5,202 bases of DNA from a virus (IMGVR_UViG_2671180275_000007), one strand, 5' to 3'. Shown: positions 1-5,202, counted from the stretch's first letter. Notes: a model not told the origin generated them from the letters alone. Numbers and translations: made by a program.

Positions 1-85
1 AAATCTTACGGATCCGCTTTCCTTCCGCCCCTTGCGGCCTTACATCAACCTTATAACGCCCGTCTTTGAGTTGCTTAATCGACAT
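1..85 (-). CDS. int: Tyrosine integrase, P2-family, N-terminal fragment (gene continues past window start)
   Basis: Minus-strand ATG at 85..83 with GGAGG about 8 nt upstream (complement of 93-99). Translation MSIKQLKDGRYKVDVRPQGAEGKRIRKI resembles the N-terminus of P2-type integrases as I recall it (MAIKKLDDGRYEVDIRP...). Position immediately downstream of the repressor on the same strand matches P2 int-C order. Only 28 codons visible. Confidence 0.75.
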   Translation of the reverse strand, partial: MSIKQLKDGRYKVDVRPQGAEGKRIRKI

Positions 86-154
86 GATTAGCCCCTCCAA
101 CGGATGAATCAGCCGTACACTCTCTACGGAATGAAACCCGCTCGATGTACAGCG

Positions 155-502
155 TTAGCCAGCATTGCGGCCTGATCGGGATGATTTTTGGGTAACGTCG
201 ATTGAAGCCAGATCGCCCTCCGACTGAGAAGATCCATCAAGAGAGAGAGCCGGGGCAATTTGACCCCCAGCTTCAAACGTTTCATCAGTTGTTAACCAAA
301 GTGCATATTTTTTAAAACGTAAATTTTTTGTGATCTTTAATAAGATCTCACTTCCGATTCCATCTTGCCTTCCCGTTTCGTAATACCTCTGCGTATTAAC
401 AGGAATCCCTGTAAGCTCAAAGAATTGCTTCCTTGTAAGCCTCTCACTTTTCCGGATCATCAAGATTTTTTCACCGATACTTATTGACAGTGTCGAATTC
501 AT
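155..502 (-). CDS. Immunity repressor, XRE-family helix-turn-helix, P2 C-like
   Basis: ORF track 155..553 (-); I place the start at the internal ATG (500-502), giving MNSTLSISIGEKILMIRKSERLTRKQFFELTGIPVNTQRYYETGR...FKKYALWLTTDE...GGQIAPAL. The HTH lies 8 aa from this N-terminus, and the block pattern (EKI..MRKSE.L.R.Q...LTG.P...YYE.GR, KY.LW, GQIAPAL) matches my recollection of the P2 C repressor. GAGGA lies 10 nt upstream of the 502 ATG on the minus strand; the ATG at 541 and TTG at 553 have no RBS. Stop TAA at 157..155. Confidence 0.85.
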   Translation of the reverse strand: MNSTLSISIGEKILMIRKSERLTRKQFFELTGIPVNTQRYYETGRQDGIGSEILLKITKNLRFKKYALWLTTDETFEAGGQIAPALSLDGSSQSEGDLASIDVTQKSSRSGRNAG

Positions 503-513
503 ACCACTAAAAT
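484..513 (+). promoter_or_regulatory. Candidate sigma70-type early (Pe-like) promoter: TTGACA-18 bp-TAAAAT
   Basis: Perfect -35 TTGACA at 484-489 and -10-like TAAAAT at 508-513 with 18-bp spacer, oriented toward the Cox-like gene (predicted start near 520). It overlaps the first codons of the repressor gene, compatible with P2/186-type overlapping switch promoters. Sequence motif only; no transcript data. Confidence 0.4.
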
Positions 514-603: not shown

Positions 604-1128
604 ATGCGGAAGTCAATTGCCGATAAAGAGTTATCTGACACACAAGCCCTTCAGGAAAACGACAGCATCACCGAATCCGTTGGTGCGGAAAACGACGATG
701 AACACCAAGAGGAAAAGAAAAAACGCACCTACAAAAAAGGGGCAACCTTGCGACTGGATGGCCCGGTAGCCGGACTTTGCTCACTTGAAAAAGGGGCAGC
801 CTATATCGGGTTGACAAAAGCTGCATTGCGCGTGGCGCTTCAGCGAAATCAGATGCCTGGACACAAGACCCGTTCAAACCCTGAAGATGAAAATTCGGAT
901 GGCGTATGGTGGTTTAACGCCAGAGAGTGGGACAAGCTGGCTGACGAACTACCAGAATGCGAGCCGCCAGAATGGCACAACTGGAAAAGCTACTGGACGT
1001 ACGACCGACAGAAAAGAAAGTTTTCCCCGGCAAACAAAGAAGACTGCCAGACCATCAATGGAAAGCGGGTTTACACAGGAAGAAAGTCAAAACTGGAGCA
1101 ACACCAATACAGCGAAGGCAACCAGTGA
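604..1128 (+). CDS. cox: Cox/Apl-like winged-HTH regulator/excisionase with acidic N-terminal and W/K/R-rich C-terminal extensions
   Basis: ATG 604 with AGAGGA 6 nt upstream. Central segment LEKGAAYIGLTKAALRVALQRNQMPG...GVWWFNAREWDKL has the HTH-plus-aromatic-wing pattern of P2 Cox as I recall it (AKLIGKSTGAVRRMIDKGKLPV...GEYWVYLPAWN) and of excisionase-type HTH domains. First gene to the right of the repressor, as for cox in P2. At 174 aa it is about twice the length of P2 Cox; an internal TTG at 745 with an AAAGGGG Shine-Dalgarno-like sequence would give a shorter Cox-sized N-terminus (alternative start). Confidence 0.65.
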   Translation: MRKSIADKELSDTQALQENDSITESVGAENDDEHQEEKKKRTYKKGATLRLDGPVAGLCSLEKGAAYIGLTKAALRVALQRNQMPGHKTRSNPEDENSDGVWWFNAREWDKLADELPECEPPEWHNWKSYWTYDRQKRKFSPANKEDCQTINGKRVYTGRKSKLEQHQYSEGNQ

Positions 1129-2012: not shown

Positions 2013-2252
2013 ATGAACAACCACTACAAACAATTAGTGAATTTGCTCCTTGAGCGCCACAGTTTTTCACTGGCAAAAACAAACGGAGAAAATAAAACTG
2101 CCGCCGACAACTCCCTGATACTGGGCCTCAGCGGGTTACAACAGGCAGCATTCTGCGCTGACGACAGTGAGGCGCTTACCGAAATAAACGAGCTCATCAG
2201 CCAGATGGATATTGATGGGTACATCCAGCCCTACAATCTGGCGGTCGTATGA
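2013..2252 (+). CDS. Hypothetical protein (79 aa)
   Basis: ATG 2013 with a strong AAGGAG Shine-Dalgarno 6 nt upstream (2001-2006). Stop TGA 2250-2252 overlaps the next start (ATGA). Confidence 0.65.
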   Translation: MNNHYKQLVNLLLERHSFSLAKTNGENKTAADNSLILGLSGLQQAAFCADDSEALTEINELISQMDIDGYIQPYNLAVV

Positions 2253-2353
2253 GTTCAACATTAATCATTATCGCGTCATGGGTGATATTACTGGCGTCAT
2301 TCGTTGTTTCTTATTTCGTGGTGAAGCTGCTTACTCAATATTTAAATCTGTAA
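2249..2353 (+). CDS. Unannotated 34-aa hydrophobic single-pass membrane peptide (MSSTLIIIASWVILLASFVVSYFVVKLLTQYLNL)
   Basis: Not in the ORF track (below length cut-off). ATG 2249-2251 overlaps the upstream stop as ATGA; own translation gives one about 21-residue hydrophobic helix with a short polar tail; stop TAA 2351-2353. Segment is AT-rich. Size and composition resemble phage Kil-type or type I toxin-type membrane peptides. Confidence 0.45.
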   Translation: MSSTLIIIASWVILLASFVVSYFVVKLLTQYLNL

Positions 2354-2450: not shown

Positions 2451-2684
2451 ATGAAAACCGTTAAATCACCTGACAAAGAAATAAGCACCGGACAGGAGCA
2501 CATGCACGCACATATCAGCATGGCCGCAAGAAATGCCGAGCGTGCGCATATCTGCGAAATACTGCGCGAGCGGATTGACGGGATGAAAGAAATTAACGCA
2601 TCCCCGGAACAAATCTACTCAGCCATTGAGCGATTAATTGCTGTGCTCATGAACACCCGTGAACAGAAAGGTAACGCACAATGA
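2451..2684 (+). CDS. Hypothetical protein (77 aa)
   Basis: ATG 2451 with AGGAGA 6 nt upstream; stop overlaps the exonuclease start as ATGA (2681-2684). No motif recognised. Confidence 0.65.
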   Translation: MKTVKSPDKEISTGQEHMHAHISMAARNAERAHICEILRERIDGMKEINASPEQIYSAIERLIAVLMNTREQKGNAQ

Positions 2685-3262
2685 ACCACCTCATGATTGA
2701 CACTGAAACACTGGGCTCCGGACCGGATGCCGTCATATTCGCAATTGGCGCGGTGTTTTTCGACCCGTTCACCGGAAAGCTGGGCAAGCAGTTTGAGCAA
2801 TTCATCGACCCGGTGGATTCAGAACGCAACGGCGGAACCGTCAATGCAGCAACCACTGTATGGTGGGCCGGACAATCCGTGGAAGCCAGAGCCTGCCTGC
2901 GCAACGCAAAGGGAACAGAGCTTGCAGCAGTGACCGAATTTCTGGCGTTCATTTCACGCAACATGCATGACGAAAGCCCGGGCAATTCACTGACCATATG
3001 GTGCAAGGGCGCATCCTTCGATTTCCCGATCCTGAAATCCGCCATAACACGCACAGCCGGAGAAAAAAGCATTCCGTGGTGCTACTGGAACGAGCGCTGT
3101 ATGCGCCCGCTTATCGCCATGGCTGAGTCAACGGGCTGGAAAATGCCAGGCAGATCAGGAAAAGAGGCCATTGCTCACACCGCACTAAGCGACGCCATTT
3201 ACCAGGCAAAGATCGTGTCAGAAATCTGGCAGCGCTTCACAACACCATTCCTGAACATATGA
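2681..3262 (+). CDS. DEDDh-family 3'-5' exonuclease, small DnaQ/RNase T-like fold (Rv2179c-like)
   Basis: Exo I motif MIDTETLG at the N-terminus (D-x-E), Exo II-like IWCKGASFDFPIL, Exo III HTALSDAIYQA (H-x4-D) near the C-terminus. Size (193 aa) and motif spacing match the short phage/actinobacterial Rv2179c-like exonuclease family as I recall it. Translationally coupled to the upstream ORF. Confidence 0.85.
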   Translation: MNHLMIDTETLGSGPDAVIFAIGAVFFDPFTGKLGKQFEQFIDPVDSERNGGTVNAATTVWWAGQSVEARACLRNAKGTELAAVTEFLAFISRNMHDESPGNSLTIWCKGASFDFPILKSAITRTAGEKSIPWCYWNERCMRPLIAMAESTGWKMPGRSGKEAIAHTALSDAIYQAKIVSEIWQRFTTPFLNI

Positions 3263-3271
3263 GGTGAAGCC

Positions 3272-3499
3272 ATGGTCGCCATCCTGAATATGCGTTGCCG
3301 CCCCCCCCTGAACGTGGAAACAAAAGCCCGCACGTCTCTGCGCTTATTTCGCAACGGAGCGCGGAATTTTTCACGCATAAAGCCCCACGACTACCTGGTC
3401 ATAAGAATCGGTTTTCGCTGGCGATTACTGAGCAAAAACAACGGGAAGTCATGGGATTTATTAACGCACGAAACCTATAACAGAGAGGCCGCGTTATGA
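3272..3499 (+). CDS. Hypothetical basic protein (75 aa) containing a C8 homopolymer tract; coupled to dam
   Basis: ATG 3272 with GAGGTG 5 nt upstream; stop TGA 3497-3499 overlaps the dam ATG 3496-3498 (ATGA). R/K-rich product (MVAILNMRCRPPLNVETKAR...). The C8 run at 3301-3308 encodes RPPL. Coding status rests on RBS and coupling geometry only. Confidence 0.4.
   Translation: MVAILNMRCRPPLNVETKARTSLRLFRNGARNFSRIKPHDYLVIRIGFRWRLLSKNNGKSWDLLTHETYNREAAL
3301..3308. repeat. Homopolymeric C8 tract (G8 on the minus strand)
   Basis: Read directly: gccgCCCCCCCCtg at 3297-3310; the only homopolymer of 8 or more G/C I can see in the window. Lies 30 nt into ORF 3272..3499. Confidence 0.9.
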
Positions 3500-4470
3500 G
3501 CGAAAAACTGTTATCCGGCACACCGCTGAAATGGGTGGGCGGAAAAAACCGCATCATGGACACACTGAAGGCGCACCTGCCAGAAGCTGACTGCCTGGTT
3601 GAGCCGTTCGTGGGTGGCGCATCGGTATTCATGAACACCCGTTACAGCCGCTGCATCCTTGGAGATTCCAACGGTGCGCTGATTAATTTCTGGCGGGCAG
3701 CACGGGACAACACCGACAGCCTGATCGATGAGGCAAAAGACCTGTTCCTGGAACATAACAACAGGGCTGACTATCTCGCCATCCGCAACACCTTTAATGC
3801 AGAGAATCATGCATTCCTGAGCACGGGAATAAGCGACCGCCGTGAACTGCGACTGGCCGCCATGTTTTTGTACCTCAACCGGCACTGTTTTAATGGCCTG
3901 TACCGGGTGAACGGAAAAGGTGATTTTAACGTGCCTTTCGGCGGCTACCGAAAACCCTACTTCCCTGAGCGGGAAATCCGCGCATTTGCAGACAAGGCAA
4001 ACAGCACCCAAACGCTGCTTGTTCATGGCGATTTTCGAAAAACGCTGAGCTGTGCCAGCCACCTGTTCAGCATGGGTAACACGCTTTGCGTGTACTGCGA
4101 TCCCCCTTACCTGCCATTCAGTGGCCGGGACAATTTCACCGCCTATGGAAAACCCTTCACGAAGGACGACCACATTCGCCTGAGAGCAGCGCTTGACCGC
4201 CTTTCACAGGAAACGGGCGGCATGACCAGCATCACCATCTCCAATTCCGACACACCGGAAACCAGACGCATTTATCAGGGTTACCGGATGAACTGCATAC
4301 AGGCACCACGAAGCGTTGGCGCAAGAACCAGTGAACCCGCAATGGAAGTTATCGCCACCCTGAAGCAGTGCGACACCTGCGGTCGCCATGGCGGTGGCTG
4401 GTGCCCGGACTGCGGCCCGGCGACGGGAGATGCAACGTACAGCGCGATGTTTACCTCTGCTCACCCGTGA
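3496..4470 (+). CDS. dam: DNA adenine methyltransferase, Dam family (GATC N6-adenine MTase), with about 45-aa C-terminal Cys4 extension
   Basis: Strong block-by-block match to E. coli Dam as I recall it: LKWVGGK (Dam LKWAGGK), CLVEPFVGGASVFMNT, FLYLNRHCFNGLYRVNGKGDFNVPFGGYRKPYFPE, catalytic VYCDPPYLPFSGRDNFTAYG (DPPY), ISNSDT. Extra C-terminal tail contains CDTC-x7-CPDC (nt 4369-4413). Antisense ORF 3511..4173 is spurious. Confidence 0.95.
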   Translation: MSEKLLSGTPLKWVGGKNRIMDTLKAHLPEADCLVEPFVGGASVFMNTRYSRCILGDSNGALINFWRAARDNTDSLIDEAKDLFLEHNNRADYLAIRNTFNAENHAFLSTGISDRRELRLAAMFLYLNRHCFNGLYRVNGKGDFNVPFGGYRKPYFPEREIRAFADKANSTQTLLVHGDFRKTLSCASHLFSMGNTLCVYCDPPYLPFSGRDNFTAYGKPFTKDDHIRLRAALDRLSQETGGMTSITISNSDTPETRRIYQGYRMNCIQAPRSVGARTSEPAMEVIATLKQCDTCGRHGGGWCPDCGPATGDATYSAMFTSAHP

Positions 4471-4505
4471 ATAACCAGATGAATCAGCAACACAGGAGTC
4501 AACCG

Positions 4506-4751
4506 GTGAATAACAAAAGCACGCAGCAATCAATCGTCGTTTCAGCACTGAGATATCTGGCCTGCATCAAACAACAGGAAGCAAGAGAGGCGGTGGAGAA
4601 GCGGGATTCGGGGATATTTGTGGCACTTGGACACAGCTATACGGCAATGCTTGCCAGCAGGTCCGCTGAATTCATTGAGGAGCAGCAACGGGAAATTGAG
4701 GCACTTAAAACCGCAGCAAACAAGGAACGGAGAGGAAGGGGCGAACAATGA
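4506..4751 (+). CDS. Hypothetical protein (about 81 aa; GTG start favoured, ATG 4479 alternative)
   Basis: In-frame with track ORF 4368..4751, whose first 33 codons overlap the dam 3' end (dam stop 4468-4470) and are unlikely to be translated. GTG 4506 is preceded by AGGAG (4494-4498) at 7 nt; ATG 4479 lacks an RBS. C-terminal part is charged and coiled-coil-like (EEQQREIEALKTAANKERR). Confidence 0.5.
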   Translation: MNNKSTQQSIVVSALRYLACIKQQEAREAVEKRDSGIFVALGHSYTAMLASRSAEFIEEQQREIEALKTAANKERRGRGEQ

Positions 4752-4966
4752 TCCAGGAATCAACCGTTATCCGGTTCACAGCCAACGGCCGTCAGTACGA
4801 AGTCGACGAAAGCCTGATTGACCCGGGCATGACACGCCAGGACTCACGCAATCCTGAGATGCATCACATCCGCCTTATCAACGGCTCGCACTTCTGCGCC
4901 ACGAACATGGAAGAAGTACGCGTGCTGACAGCAACACGCAACACGGGAGGTACAGCATGGCAGTGA
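4748..4966 (+). CDS. Hypothetical protein (72 aa)
   Basis: ATG 4748 overlaps the upstream stop (ATGA, 4748-4751); GGAGAGGAAGGGG purine-rich RBS upstream. No motif recognised. Confidence 0.55.
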   Translation: MIQESTVIRFTANGRQYEVDESLIDPGMTRQDSRNPEMHHIRLINGSHFCATNMEEVRVLTATRNTGGTAWQ

Positions 4967-5202
4967 TTTATATCGCCGGTCCCATGACCGGATACAAAGA
5001 CCACAACAGAACGGCGTTTTCCATGGCGGCGATGAAGCTTAAGTCAGCCGGATACACCGCACTCAACCCTGCCATACTGCCGGACGGACTAAGCCAGCAG
5101 CAGTACATGAGCATTTGTATTTCGATGCTCATGTGTGCCGATGCCATTTACTTACTGGAAGGCTGGACGGAGTCAGCTGGCGCACGGGCTGAGTACGCAA
5201 TG
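4957..5202 (+). CDS. DUF4406-like protein (nucleoside 2-deoxyribosyltransferase-like fold), N-terminal 82 codons; continues past window end
   Basis: Not in the ORF track because it runs off the window. ATG 4957 with GGGAGG 6 nt upstream, overlapping the upstream ORF by 10 nt. Own translation MAVIYIAGPMTGYKDHNRTAFSMAAMKLKSAGYTALNPAILPDG...CADAIYLLEGWTESAGARAEYAM shows the IY(I/L)(A/S)GPMTG...N...F......L...G....NP...L......C(D/A)A...L.GW..S.GA..E pattern I associate with DUF4406. No stop to 5202. Confidence 0.75.
   Translation, partial: MAVIYIAGPMTGYKDHNRTAFSMAAMKLKSAGYTALNPAILPDGLSQQQYMSICISMLMCADAIYLLEGWTESAGARAEYAM

What the first reader, a model, noticed from the sequence alone, without database searches (positions are those of the whole stretch)
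2681..5202. Exonuclease - poly-C ORF - Dam - small ORFs - DUF4406 cluster: candidate DNA-modification/anti-defence module in the early operon
Classical P2 carries replication-helper genes (B, orf80-83) between cox and A; here that position holds a DEDDh 3'-5' exonuclease, an orphan Dam methyltransferase and a DUF4406-like protein, interleaved with four small unknown ORFs. All are tightly coupled, which suggests co-regulated function. Orphan phage Dam enzymes are established anti-restriction/self-marking functions. The roles of a small Rv2179c-like exonuclease and a deoxyribosyltransferase-fold protein beside it are not established; possibilities include degrading host or defence-derived nucleic-acid signals, trimming replication intermediates, or remodelling nucleotide pools. 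The small ORFs (2451, 3272, 4506, 4748) have no recognisable domains and are candidates for new anti-defence or host-takeover proteins.
Basis: inference. Interest (0 to 1): 0.5.

Follow-up and report, generated by a model that had tools for sequence, protein, structure and literature searches.

The report
Accessory early genes of P2-like prophage
The cluster is real and sits in the early lytic operon of a P2-like E. coli prophage. It is a mosaic of already annotated gene families, and its exonuclease appears to be an allele of a published anti-T4 defence nuclease, not a new anti-defence module.

Summary
The ORFs exist as described and are tightly coupled on the + strand of a P2/186-like E. coli prophage, downstream of the early promoter.

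- The "poly-C ORF" (3272-3499) has a domain: Pfam PF24732 ParE_like. Its predicted fold is RelE/ParE.
- The exonuclease is a homologue of T4 DexA. It very probably is an allele of "EcD", shown in 2025 to digest 5hmC DNA and protect E. coli from T4. That is defence or inter-phage exclusion, not counter-defence.
- The conserved unit is four genes: small helical ORF 2451, exonuclease, ParE-like protein, Dam. It lies upstream of replication gene A. ORFs 4506 and 4748 and the DUF4406 gene were found only in the E. coli lineage of these cassettes.

Dam keeps its catalytic motifs and most GATC-contact residues and is an orphan.

Unexpected extras:
- The C8 tract varies between C7, C8 and C9 among near-identical prophages.
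- About 80% of cassette exonucleases outside the E. coli lineage have lost catalytic residues.
- Where the exonuclease is missing, ORF 2451 homologues abut the ParE-like gene in a toxin-antitoxin-like arrangement.
- The zinc-ribbon tail of Dam is shared with RecE.

The anti-defence reading is only partly supported. Interest is moderate.

The parts
484..513 (+). Predicted early (Pe-type) sigma-70 promoter that would drive the whole + strand gene string. This is context, not part of the finding.
   Evidence: TTGACA-18-TAAAAT, 11 of 12 matches. It faces the divergent HTH repressor gene.
2451..2684 (+). Small helical protein (77 aa, phrog_22206). It is the first gene of the conserved four-gene cassette and a candidate partner or antitoxin of the ParE-like protein.
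   Evidence: PHROG hit E 2.4e-25. No Pfam or PDB match. An HMM finds it upstream of the ParE-like gene in 81 of 88 loci. It directly abuts the ParE-like gene with a 4-nt overlap where the exonuclease is absent, in L007, L009, L011 and L039. dN/dS 0.39-0.46.
2681..3262 (+). DEDDh 3'-5' exonuclease of the Rv2179c-like / T4 DexA family. Very probably an allele of the published EcD ('HREX') nuclease.
   Evidence: PF16473 E 5.7e-51. Matches T4 DexA structures 8KEN and 8KEL at E 2e-11. Catalytic D7, E9, D114, H166 and D171 are intact. The DexA D90 equivalent is A82, which is A78 when counted from M5 as in EcD. The W152 equivalent is W136. The EcD forward cloning primer matches orthologues exactly. 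The start at 2681 (MNHLMID) is conserved in homologues, whereas RefSeq starts at 2693.
3272..3499 (+).
3301..3308 (+). C8 homopolymer in codons 10-13 of the ParE-like gene. Its length is polymorphic (C7, C8, C9) among close relatives.
   Evidence: Among 27 complete E. coli genomes, 3 have C7 and 2 have C9 (all five confirmed by sequence) and 22 are read as C8 from ungapped match lengths. Among 10 IMG/VR loci, 5 have C8, 3 C7 and 2 C9. Length changes occur on near-identical flanks and on several haplotypes.
3496..4470 (+). Orphan Dam-family (D12 class) N6-adenine DNA methyltransferase, predicted GATC-specific, with a C-terminal CxxC-x7-CxxC zinc-ribbon tail.
   Evidence: PF02086 E 7.8e-53. TIGR00571 232.9 bits (above cut-off); PADLOC orphan methyltransferase model E 5.4e-77. 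EcoDam 2G1P E 1.8e-53. Equivalents of EcoDam K9, N120, L122, R124, P134 and Y138 are kept, with Y119 changed to F and R137 to G. EPFVGG starts at aa 36 and DPPY at aa 202. No endonuclease gene lies adjacent.
4369..4413 (+). Coding segment for the four-cysteine motif (C292, C295, C303, C306) of the Dam tail.
   Evidence: The tail is 57-60% identical over about 30 aa to an internal segment of lambdoid RecE / exonuclease VIII proteins. It is conserved in the Klebsiella phage Dam.
4506..4751 (+). Small ORF (81 aa, GTG start) of unknown function. Its N-terminus varies between lineages.
   Evidence: Annotated in RefSeq. Only a weak PHROG hit, E 5.5e-4. Other E. coli lineages carry a 78-aa ORF at the same position that resembles it at the C-terminus by eye and has the same ATGA coupling to the next gene.
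4748..4966 (+). Small all-beta protein (72 aa, phrog_3459) of unknown function, restricted to E. coli and Shigella P2-like phages.
4957..5202 (+). First 82 of 116 codons of a DUF4406 protein with a nucleoside 2-deoxyribosyltransferase-like fold. It runs off the window.
   Evidence: PF14359 E 7e-34 and phrog_355 E 2.9e-41 on the full protein from L001. Homologues occur in 613 phage records from many hosts.

Best explanation
The region is the distal accessory part of the early lytic operon of a P2/186-like (Peduoviridae) prophage of E. coli. It is a mosaic, not one machine.

Its core is a four-gene cassette conserved across enterobacterial genera and placed just upstream of the replication initiator gene A:
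- small helical protein (2451)
- DexA-like DEDDh exonuclease (2681)
- mini RelE/ParE-fold protein (3272)
- Dam-family methyltransferase (3496)

Three further genes follow (4506, 4748, DUF4406). In the loci examined they accompany the cassette only in the E. coli lineage.

How it most likely works:
- When the C repressor is lifted, all genes are transcribed from the early promoter and translated by coupling. This is inferred from gene layout.
- Dam methylates GATC on replicating phage DNA. This acts as self-marking and as protection against GATC-directed restriction. It is inferred from family membership and retained contact residues.
- The exonuclease is an allele of EcD. That enzyme ignores unmodified dsDNA, degrades 5-hydroxymethylcytosine DNA, and blocks T4 when expressed from a plasmid. 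This was shown by others, for EcD. The role here is therefore most likely exclusion of competing T-even phages, or DexA-like DNA-end processing, not counter-defence.
- The RelE/ParE-fold protein keeps a near-invariant Arg, His and Tyr. It probably acts as an RNA-directed or gyrase-directed toxin-like effector during the lytic programme, possibly held in check by the 2451 protein. This is inferred.
- DUF4406 probably acts on nucleotides or nucleosides. This is inferred from its fold family only.
For: - Prophage context and operon layout.
- Family assignments with curated cut-offs passed.
- Exonuclease: intact DEDDh pentad; DexA homology; the EcD link through the A78 numbering, the W152 equivalent and an exact forward-primer match in orthologous prophage loci.
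- Dam motifs and GATC-contact residues.
- GATC is not depleted in the prophage.
- RelE/ParE fold and conserved residues.
- Cassette synteny: 70 of 88 ParE-like-seeded loci carry all four genes, with protein identities down to 33-60%.
- The methyltransferase slot is filled by a PAPS-reductase-domain protein in 6 loci, and SI7 carries a second D12 methyltransferase immediately upstream of the ParE-like gene.
- Each cassette gene can be absent while the others stay, which argues for separable functions.
- Purifying selection on all tested ORFs.
Against: - No expression or functional data exist for this prophage.
- The identity with EcD rests on indirect evidence. The GenBank record could not be fetched, and the published reverse primer differs from the window by one inserted base.
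- A defence role for a gene in a repressed lytic operon needs leaky or lytic-phase expression.
- About 80% of cassette exonucleases, mostly Klebsiella-type, have lost 2-3 catalytic residues yet remain full-length. The conserved role of that gene in the cassette therefore cannot be nuclease activity.
- E. coli already has Dam, so the benefit of a phage Dam in this host is unclear.
- The loci were seeded on the ParE-like gene and many are near-identical Klebsiella prophages. Synteny counts therefore overstate the number of independent lineages.
Confidence: 0.5

Rival explanations
1. The cluster is a counter-defence module. Dam masks phage DNA from restriction, the exonuclease destroys defence-derived nucleic-acid signals or retron-type DNA, DUF4406 remodels nucleotide pools depleted by defence systems, and the small ORFs are new anti-defence proteins.
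For: - Early-operon position and coupling.
- Orphan Dam.
- The slot after the ParE-like gene is reserved for DNA-modifying enzymes.
- PF24732 proteins also occur in strictly virulent and jumbo phages, where they must serve the infection.
- DUF4406 is widespread in phage nucleotide-metabolism regions.
Against: - The one component with experimental data (EcD) was reported as a defence nuclease acting on modified phage DNA, with no activity on unmodified dsDNA at 25 deg C.
- Nothing indicates activity on signalling nucleotides.
- There are no PADLOC or literature links for the small ORFs.
- Most cassette exonucleases are predicted to be catalytically dead.
Confidence: 0.2
2. The genes are replication and recombination helpers. 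They would replace P2 B and orf80-83, doing end trimming (exonuclease), methylation to escape SeqA or MutH on rapidly replicating DNA (Dam), and dNTP supply (DUF4406).
For: - The cassette lies immediately upstream of replication gene A in nearly all P2-like loci.
- In L008 and phage ESSI2_ev239 the ParE-like gene lies directly upstream of a Toprim primase gene, overlapping it in L008.
- T4 DexA has DNA-scavenging and intron-homing roles.
Against: - Each gene is dispensable in some related prophages.
- The exonuclease is catalytically degenerate in most cassettes.
- A RelE/ParE fold has no known replication role, except that ParE poisons gyrase.
- Classical P2 replicates without any of these genes (established knowledge of P2).
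Confidence: 0.15
3. Genes 2451, exonuclease and ParE-like form one toxin-antitoxin-like or abortive-infection unit. The 2451 protein neutralises the RelE/ParE-fold toxin. The DexA-like protein, active or catalytically dead, senses modified or foreign DNA ends and releases the toxin. The poly-C tract makes the toxin phase-variable.
For: - The gene order is antitoxin-like then toxin-like, with a 4-nt overlap, wherever the exonuclease is missing.
- A dead exonuclease is retained as a full-length ORF inside the cassette.
- The RelE/ParE fold has a conserved Arg, His and Tyr.
- EcD has anti-T4 activity.
- Tract length is polymorphic while the downstream ORF stays intact and under purifying selection.
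Against: - The 2451 protein has no DNA-binding or known antitoxin domain.
- Several P2-like loci have the ParE-like gene without 2451 (L008, L010, L016, L017).
- Virulent phages carry the ParE-like gene in unrelated contexts.
- No toxicity data exist.
- A complex prediction could not be run.
- The operon should be silent in the lysogen.
Confidence: 0.1

Closest known systems
EcD / 'HREX' exonuclease of E. coli and T4 DexA (Kang et al., Nucleic Acids Res 2025, PMC12153337; PDB 8KEL, 8KEN)
   Same: - Same family: PF16473, with phmmer E 2e-11 to DexA.
- Intact DEDDh residues.
- Ala at the DexA D90 position, which is A78 in EcD numbering.
- Trp at the W152 position.
- The EcD forward cloning primer matches orthologous prophage genes exactly.
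   Different: - The paper treats EcD as a bacterial defence gene and never mentions a prophage. Here the gene sits in the repressed early lytic operon of a P2-like prophage, inside a conserved four-gene cassette.
- The EcD construct starts at M5 of the conserved 193-aa ORF.
- Sequence identity to HAK9828821.1 could not be checked directly.
E. coli Dam (EcoDam, PDB 2G1P) and orphan phage Dam enzymes such as T4 Dam and P1 Dam
   Same: - D12-class fold, with FxGxG and DPPY motifs.
- Most GATC-contact residues are conserved.
- No partner endonuclease.
   Different: - It scores below the EcoDam equivalog cut-off (221 against 441 bits).
- Y119 is changed to F and R137 to G.
- It carries an extra ~45-aa C-terminal four-cysteine tail that is shared with RecE proteins.
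RelE/ParE-superfamily type II toxins (RelE, YoeB, YafQ, HigB, ParE), and T4 RegB as a phage-encoded RelE/YoeB-like early endoribonuclease with no known antitoxin (PMC3014915)
   Same: - C-terminal His and Tyr plus a conserved Arg, as in YoeB-type RNases.
- Expressed from a phage early operon, like regB.
   Different: - Only 75 aa, with one N-terminal helix instead of two.
- No adjacent antitoxin in this window.
- RegB itself was not among the structural hits.
- No activity data exist, and Pfam names the family ParE-like without experimental basis that I could find.
PaaA2-ParE2-type systems with a small helical antitoxin that lacks a DNA-binding domain (from my own knowledge; PDB 5CZF appears)
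   Same: A small helical protein is encoded upstream of a ParE-fold toxin in prophage DNA.
   Different: - In this window the two genes are separated by the exonuclease gene.
- No sequence similarity was detected.
- The partnership is untested.
Nucleoside 2-deoxyribosyltransferase / DNPH1 (Rcl)-like enzymes
   Same: DUF4406 gives weak hits to PF05014 and a strong hit to phrog_355, annotated 'nucleoside 2-deoxyribosyltransferase'.
   Different: The PF05014 score is below its cut-off (14.6 against 28.8 bits). There is no solved relative by sequence. Substrate and reaction are unknown.

Membership tests
Rv2179c-like / DexA DEDDh exonucleases (PF16473) | Profile score above the Pfam gathering threshold over the full domain | tested here: met
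   173.1 bits against 27; residues 2-183 match profile positions 1-177.
Rv2179c-like / DexA DEDDh exonucleases (PF16473) | Five catalytic residues D-E-D-H-D present | tested here: met
   D7, E9, D114, H166 and D171. This is not met in about 70 of 86 cassette homologues from other lineages.
EcD / HREX 5hmC-specific defence exonuclease (PMC12153337) | Sequence identity with EcD (HAK9828821.1) | tested here: inconclusive
   The record is not retrievable. The forward primer matches orthologues L019, L022, L023 and L026 exactly, and the window with one synonymous mismatch. The reverse primer matches apart from one inserted base. The A78 numbering fits.
EcD / HREX 5hmC-specific defence exonuclease (PMC12153337) | Loss of the tetramer-forming Asp (DexA D90) with retention of the 5hmC-recognising Trp (DexA W152) | tested here: met
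   A82 and W136 in the phmmer alignment to 8KEL and 8KEN. The D169 equivalent lies outside the aligned stretch.
EcD / HREX 5hmC-specific defence exonuclease (PMC12153337) | Selective digestion of 5hmC DNA and protection from T4 | not testable with these tools
   Needs enzyme and plaque assays.
Dam family GATC N6-adenine methyltransferases (TIGR00571, PF02086) | Profile scores above curated cut-offs | tested here: met
   TIGR00571 232.9 against 114.85; PF02086 180.2 against 22.
Dam family GATC N6-adenine methyltransferases (TIGR00571, PF02086) | AdoMet motif FxGxG and catalytic DPPY | tested here: met
   EPFVGG starts at aa 36 and DPPY at aa 202.
Dam family GATC N6-adenine methyltransferases (TIGR00571, PF02086) | GATC base-contact residues of EcoDam | tested here: met
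   Equivalents of K9, N120, L122, R124, P134 and Y138 are conserved. Y119 is changed to F and R137 to G. Actual specificity is untested.
EcoDam equivalog (NF008152) | Score above the equivalog cut-off | tested here: not met
   221.4 against 441 bits. It is a Dam-family member, not the host Dam orthologue.
Orphan (solitary) methyltransferase | No cognate restriction endonuclease gene adjacent | tested here: met
   Neighbours are the ParE-like gene and small ORFs. The best PADLOC hit is the orphan methyltransferase model.
RelE/ParE toxin superfamily (PF24732 ParE_like) | Profile score above the gathering threshold | tested here: met
   64.9 against 24.4 bits.
RelE/ParE toxin superfamily (PF24732 ParE_like) | RelE/ParE three-dimensional fold | tested here: met
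   [not shown]
RelE/ParE toxin superfamily (PF24732 ParE_like) | Toxicity through mRNA cleavage or gyrase poisoning | not testable with these tools
   The only available data are conserved residues: R51, H66 and Y69 in at least 90% of 62 members.
Type II toxin-antitoxin system | Adjacent upstream antitoxin gene, usually with a DNA-binding domain | tested here: not met
   - In the window the upstream gene is the exonuclease.
- The 2451 protein has no DNA-binding or antitoxin domain.
- 2451 homologues abut the toxin-like gene only in exonuclease-less loci.
DUF4406 (PF14359) | Profile score above the gathering threshold | tested here: met
   116.5 against 22 bits on the full-length protein from L001. 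Only 82 of 116 codons lie in the window.
Nucleoside 2-deoxyribosyltransferase (PF05014) | Profile score above the gathering threshold | tested here: not met
   14.6 against 28.8 bits. This is a fold-level relation only.
Phase-variable contingency locus | Homopolymer in the 5' coding region whose length differs among otherwise near-identical sequences | tested here: met
   C7, C8 and C9 occur on near-identical flanks and on several haplotypes.
Phase-variable contingency locus | Reversible switching within a clonal population | not testable with these tools
   Homopolymer sequencing error cannot be excluded.
Known anti-defence proteins | Homology to a characterised anti-defence family | not tested
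   No anti-defence profile library was available. PADLOC, a defence library, matched only the methyltransferase strongly and gave a weak hit to a generic CRISPR-associated DEDDh model.

The most novel reading that the evidence does not exclude
The 2451 protein, the DexA-like protein and the mini RelE/ParE-fold protein form a previously undescribed three-part phage-borne system. A DexA-like module, catalytically dead in most lineages, senses modified or foreign DNA. It controls a RelE-like toxin that the 2451 protein otherwise neutralises. In the E. coli lineage a slippery poly-C tract switches the toxin, and through translational coupling perhaps the downstream Dam, between expression states.
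Probability: 0.1. Interest if true: 0.7.

Novelty: new member of a known kind. Interest (0 to 1): 0.4.

Why it matters
- It places the recently described EcD/'HREX' anti-T4 nuclease in its genomic home: the early lytic operon of P2-like prophages, inside a conserved cassette. This reframes EcD as a weapon of phage-against-phage competition and raises the question of when it is expressed.
- It flags PF24732, a family of RelE/ParE-fold proteins with no adjacent known antitoxin in the contexts examined, found in temperate and strictly virulent phages. No published function was found for it.
- It offers a testable candidate partner for that protein (the 2451 family) and a possible homopolymer switch.
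- Otherwise the cluster is an ordinary mosaic of phage accessory genes that RefSeq already names.

Tried and rejected
- **Complex prediction.** The proposed interaction is therefore untested.
- **Dam tail homologues.** A homologue search with the Dam tail alone returned one uninformative hit. The tblastn search of phage records was informative instead.
- **2451 family.** Its profile against PDB and Pfam gave only designed helical repeats and noise.
- **DUF4406.** No solved relative by sequence.
- **Rfam.** No RNA family in the window at E up to 0.1.
- **Literature.** DUF4406, PF24732, Rv2179c with phage, and P2-like Dam searches gave nothing functional. The P2 hotspot paper does not cover this region.
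- **EcD reverse primer.** A scan of viral contigs hit one unrelated contig. The cluster listing did not display HAK9828821.1.
- **Fusion proteins.** Longer 'fusion' proteins in the ParE-like family proved to be upstream read-through gene calls, not real fusions.
- **Separate transcription unit.** I considered that the cassette has its own promoter and is expressed in the lysogen. No promoter or canonical terminator is predicted between 2252 and 2451. The scan is only a consensus match, so this does not exclude one.

Full report
**What the window is.** The 5202-base window is 99.3% identical over its whole length to the chromosome of E. coli JNEC-KY177. There it lies inside a P2-like prophage integrated next to dmsABC. 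The gene order runs as follows:
- integrase and an HTH repressor on the minus strand
- a long plus-strand gene string: cox-like regulator, several small ORFs, the genes of the finding, a derepression protein, replication endonuclease A
- the P2-type morphogenesis genes

The only strong sigma-70 match is TTGACA-18-TAAAAT at 484-513, in front of the cox-like gene. No promoter or canonical terminator is predicted just ahead of 2451. Only the left 1.1 kb is similar at DNA level to deposited phage genomes. About 27 of 5426 complete E. coli genomes carry the ParE-like/exonuclease junction.

| Coordinates | Size | Assignment | Source |
|---|---|---|---|
| 2451-2684 | 77 aa | phrog_22206, no Pfam domain | |
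| 2681-3262 | 193 aa | PF16473 Rv2179c-like, E 5.7e-51 | |
| 3272-3499 | 75 aa | PF24732 ParE_like, E 6.7e-18 | |
| 3496-4470 | 324 aa | PF02086 E 7.8e-53; TIGR00571 dam 232.9 bits (cut-off 114.85) | |
| 4506-4751 | 81 aa, GTG start | no domain; weak phrog_9338 hit | |
| 4748-4966 | 72 aa | phrog_3459 | |
| 4957 to window end | 82 of 116 codons | PF14359 DUF4406, E 7e-34 on the full protein from L001 | |

Coupling is tight. There are ATGA overlaps at 2681, 3496 and 4748 and a 10-nt overlap at 4957. A 9-nt spacer with GAGGTGA precedes 3272. A 35-nt spacer with AGGAG precedes the GTG at 4506.

Three corrections are needed:
- ORF 3272 is not domain-less. It matches PF24732 ParE_like above the gathering score, and RefSeq already names it 'ParE family toxin-like protein'.
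- ORF 2451 starts before the stated coordinates but belongs with the others.
- The conserved N-terminus MNH(L/V)MID in homologues shows that the exonuclease starts at 2681, not at the RefSeq start 2693.

**The exonuclease.** It keeps the full DEDDh set: D7, E9, D114, H166 and D171. In phage genomes its relatives include more than a thousand records, many annotated as T4-type dexA. Its only solved relatives by sequence are T4 DexA structures 8KEL and 8KEN (E 2e-11).

A 2025 paper (PMC12153337) reports the following:
- DexA switches between a dimer and a tetramer.
- An E. coli homologue, EcD (HAK9828821.1), has Ala78 in place of the tetramer-forming Asp90.
- EcD is inactive on unmodified dsDNA and digests the T4 genome.
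- EcD protects E. coli from T4 when carried on a plasmid.

Three lines connect the window gene to EcD:
- In the alignment to DexA, the D90 equivalent in the window protein is A82. That is A78 when counted from Met5, the start the authors used. The W152 equivalent is W136.
- The EcD forward cloning primer (ATGATTGACACCGAAAC) matches the orthologous gene exactly in four related prophage loci. It matches the window with one synonymous mismatch.
- The reverse primer matches the 3' end apart from one inserted base.

I could not fetch the GenBank record, so identity is very probable but not proven. The paper never mentions a prophage. The genomic setting found here, a lytic early operon, is therefore new information about that enzyme. 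It also changes how 'defence' should be read.

A profile search of 1.8 billion representatives finds only 94 family members. Across 62 of them, R51, W61, H66 and Y69 are conserved in at least 90%, within the signature RWRLLS...W.L(M/L)(S/T)HE.YN. From my own knowledge, this resembles the Arg/His/Tyr active sites of YoeB-type RNases.

The family also occurs in virulent and jumbo phages: Sortsne, RaK2 and fHe-Yen9-04. A plasmid-style addiction role is therefore unlikely to be its general function. T4 RegB is a precedent for an early phage endoribonuclease with a RelE/YoeB-like fold and no known antitoxin (PMC3014915).

**Dam.** The protein aligns to EcoDam (2G1P) at E 1.8e-53.
- EcoDam residues K9, N120, L122, R124, P134 and Y138 have conserved equivalents. 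Y119 is changed to F and R137 to G.
- EPFVGG and DPPY are present.
- It scores below the EcoDam equivalog cut-off, so it is a Dam-family enzyme and not the host orthologue.
- No endonuclease gene is adjacent.
- GATC occurs at roughly the expected frequency in the prophage (99 observed, 99-124 expected).
- A ~45-aa tail carries C292, C295, C303 and C306. It is conserved in Klebsiella phage Dam. It is 57-60% identical over about 30 residues to an internal segment of lambdoid RecE proteins.

**Neighbourhood conservation.** I seeded on the ParE-like family in GTDB genomes and IMG/VR and obtained 92 further loci. Of 88 loci with at least 1.5 kb on both sides:

| Number of loci | Arrangement |
|---|---|
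| 70 | 2451 - exo - ParE-like - Dam in a P2-like context, with replication gene A downstream where the flank reaches it |
| 6 | a PAPS-reductase-domain protein in place of Dam |
| 4 | no exonuclease gene |
| 5 | other P2-like arrangements, each missing one to three of 2451, exonuclease and Dam |
| 3 | non-P2 contexts |

- Two of the P2-like loci without Dam have a Toprim primase gene downstream of the ParE-like gene (L008, L016).
- One P2-like locus (phage SI7) carries a second D12 methyltransferase immediately upstream of the ParE-like gene.
- Protein identities to the window fall to 33-36% for the exonuclease, about 50% for Dam and 58-65% for the ParE-like protein in Klebsiella, Enterobacter and Yokenella prophages. 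The order is therefore old.
- Many of the loci are near-identical Klebsiella prophages, and all were chosen through one gene. The counts overstate independence.
- ORFs 4506 and 4748 and the DUF4406 gene accompany the cassette only in the E. coli lineage.
- DUF4406 on its own is common in phages of many hosts (613 records). ORF 4748 is confined to P88- and Xuanwuvirus-like coliphages.
- All tested ORFs show purifying selection, dN/dS 0.08-0.46.

**Three unexpected findings.**

*1. The poly-C tract is length-polymorphic.* The window has C8.
- Among 27 complete E. coli genomes, three have C7 and two have C9, all confirmed by sequence. The other 22 are read as C8 from ungapped match lengths.
- Among ten IMG/VR loci, three have C7 and two have C9.
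- The changes sit on near-identical flanks and on several haplotypes.
- C7 puts a TGA directly after the tract, giving a 12-aa peptide. C9 gives a 69-aa out-of-frame product that ends 16 nt before the dam start codon. Only Shine-Dalgarno-less internal starts remain in frame.
- The ORF body stays intact and under purifying selection in those variants. This fits reversible slippage better than decay. Homopolymer assembly error cannot be excluded.

*2. Most cassette exonucleases look catalytically dead.* Only 14 of 86 cassette exonuclease homologues keep all five catalytic residues: the E. coli lineage plus a few others. The Klebsiella-type proteins read D-I-K-R/C-D or D-R-x-T-D yet remain full-length. 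Whatever keeps this gene in the cassette in those lineages is not nuclease activity.

*3. A toxin-antitoxin-like gene order appears when the exonuclease is absent.* In the four exonuclease-less loci the 2451 homologue overlaps the ParE-like start codon by 4 nt. That is the classic antitoxin-toxin order. The 2451 family has no detectable domain or solved relative. It is missing from some P2-like loci that have the ParE-like gene.

**Interpretation.** The best-supported reading is a mosaic of separable accessory functions expressed with the replication genes at lytic onset.
- Dam acts as a GATC methyltransferase of the replicating phage genome.
- The EcD-type exonuclease most plausibly harms 5hmC-containing competitors or processes DNA ends as DexA does.
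- The RelE/ParE-fold protein is an effector of unknown target, possibly paired with the 2451 protein.
- DUF4406 is a nucleotide-acting enzyme.

From my own knowledge, P2 itself excludes T-even phages through tin, so a T-even-directed function fits this phage group.

It has no direct support, and it is contradicted in sign by the only experimental data available for a component.

A replication-helper role fits the position, but each gene is dispensable in related prophages. The integrated three-part TA-like or sensor system is the most novel reading that the data allow. I give it about 10%.

**Novelty and score.** All families are already in Pfam and NCBI annotation, and the exonuclease has a 2025 functional paper. 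As a cluster this is a new member of a known kind: a phage accessory gene set with an orphan methyltransferase. Four points are new here:
- the prophage context of EcD
- the conserved four-gene cassette
- the degenerate exonucleases
- the variable poly-C tract

Interest is moderate, 0.4.

Noticed in passing
window 3301-3308; L107-L111, L019-L028: The C8 run in codons 10-13 of the ParE-like gene is C7 or C9 in about 20-50% of closely related prophages, on near-identical flanks. C7 creates a stop right after the tract. C9 gives a 69-aa out-of-frame product ending 16 nt before the dam ATG. This is possible phase variation or homopolymer assembly error.
   Followed up: partly
L002:4286-4852, L004:5429-5962, L016:4444-5004 and about 70 other loci: The cassette 'exonuclease' has lost 2-3 of its 5 DEDDh catalytic residues in most non-E. 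coli lineages (for example D-I-K-R-D) while staying a full-length conserved ORF. This looks like a pseudo-enzyme with some non-catalytic role.
   Followed up: partly
L007:5801-6216, L009:5771-6189, L011:5759-6177, L039:3258-3727: Where the exonuclease gene is absent, the 2451-family gene overlaps the ParE-like gene by 4 nt, giving an antitoxin-toxin-like pair.
   Followed up: partly
window 4369-4413 (Dam aa 292-306): The CxxC-x7-CxxC tail of Dam is 57-60% identical over about 30 aa to an internal segment of lambdoid RecE / exonuclease VIII proteins. It also hits PHROG families of longer exonucleases that carry a DexA-like domain. It may be a shared zinc-ribbon module of unknown role.
   Followed up: partly
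L046:5126-6142, also L048, L049, L050, L062, L067: In six Klebsiella-type loci a PAPS-reductase-domain protein (PF01507) occupies the Dam slot directly after the ParE-like gene.
   Followed up: partly
window 2249-2353: An unannotated 34-aa strongly hydrophobic ORF (MSSTLIIIASWVILLASFVVSYFVVKLLTQYLNL) starts with an ATGA overlap on the stop of the DUF4754 gene. It may be a small membrane peptide.
   Followed up: no
window 2681/2693 and 3272/3290: RefSeq start codons are probably too far downstream for the exonuclease (2693) and the ParE-like gene (3290). Homologues conserve the longer N-termini, and the upstream ATGs have the overlap or the Shine-Dalgarno sequence. The published EcD construct also starts at the internal Met5.
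   Followed up: yes
window 1-460: Seven of the window's 18 GATC sites cluster in the first 460 bases (integrase 3' end, repressor gene and switch region). This could matter for Dam-dependent regulation.
   Followed up: no
window 4506-4751; L019:5299-5535: ORF 4506 has a divergent 78-aa counterpart in other E. coli lineages. It resembles it at the C-terminus by eye and has the same ATGA coupling to ORF 4748, which suggests a rapidly diverging N-terminal part.
   Followed up: partly
window 604-1128: The cox-like protein is unusually long (174 aa), with an acidic and lysine-rich N-terminal extension. It scores just below the Pfam Phage_Cox cut-off (25.3 against 27.5 bits).
   Followed up: no
L001:25281-25805 (minus strand, just beyond the window end): A 174-aa hypothetical ORF runs convergently and overlaps the 3' end of the DUF4406 gene, interrupting the plus-strand string before the derepression protein and gene A.
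   Followed up: no
L018:3873-4094 (phage Sortsne); BFVD hits from RaK2 and fHe-Yen9-04: PF24732 proteins occur in strictly virulent and jumbo phages, always as small stand-alone ORFs overlapping an unrelated upstream gene.
   Followed up: partly
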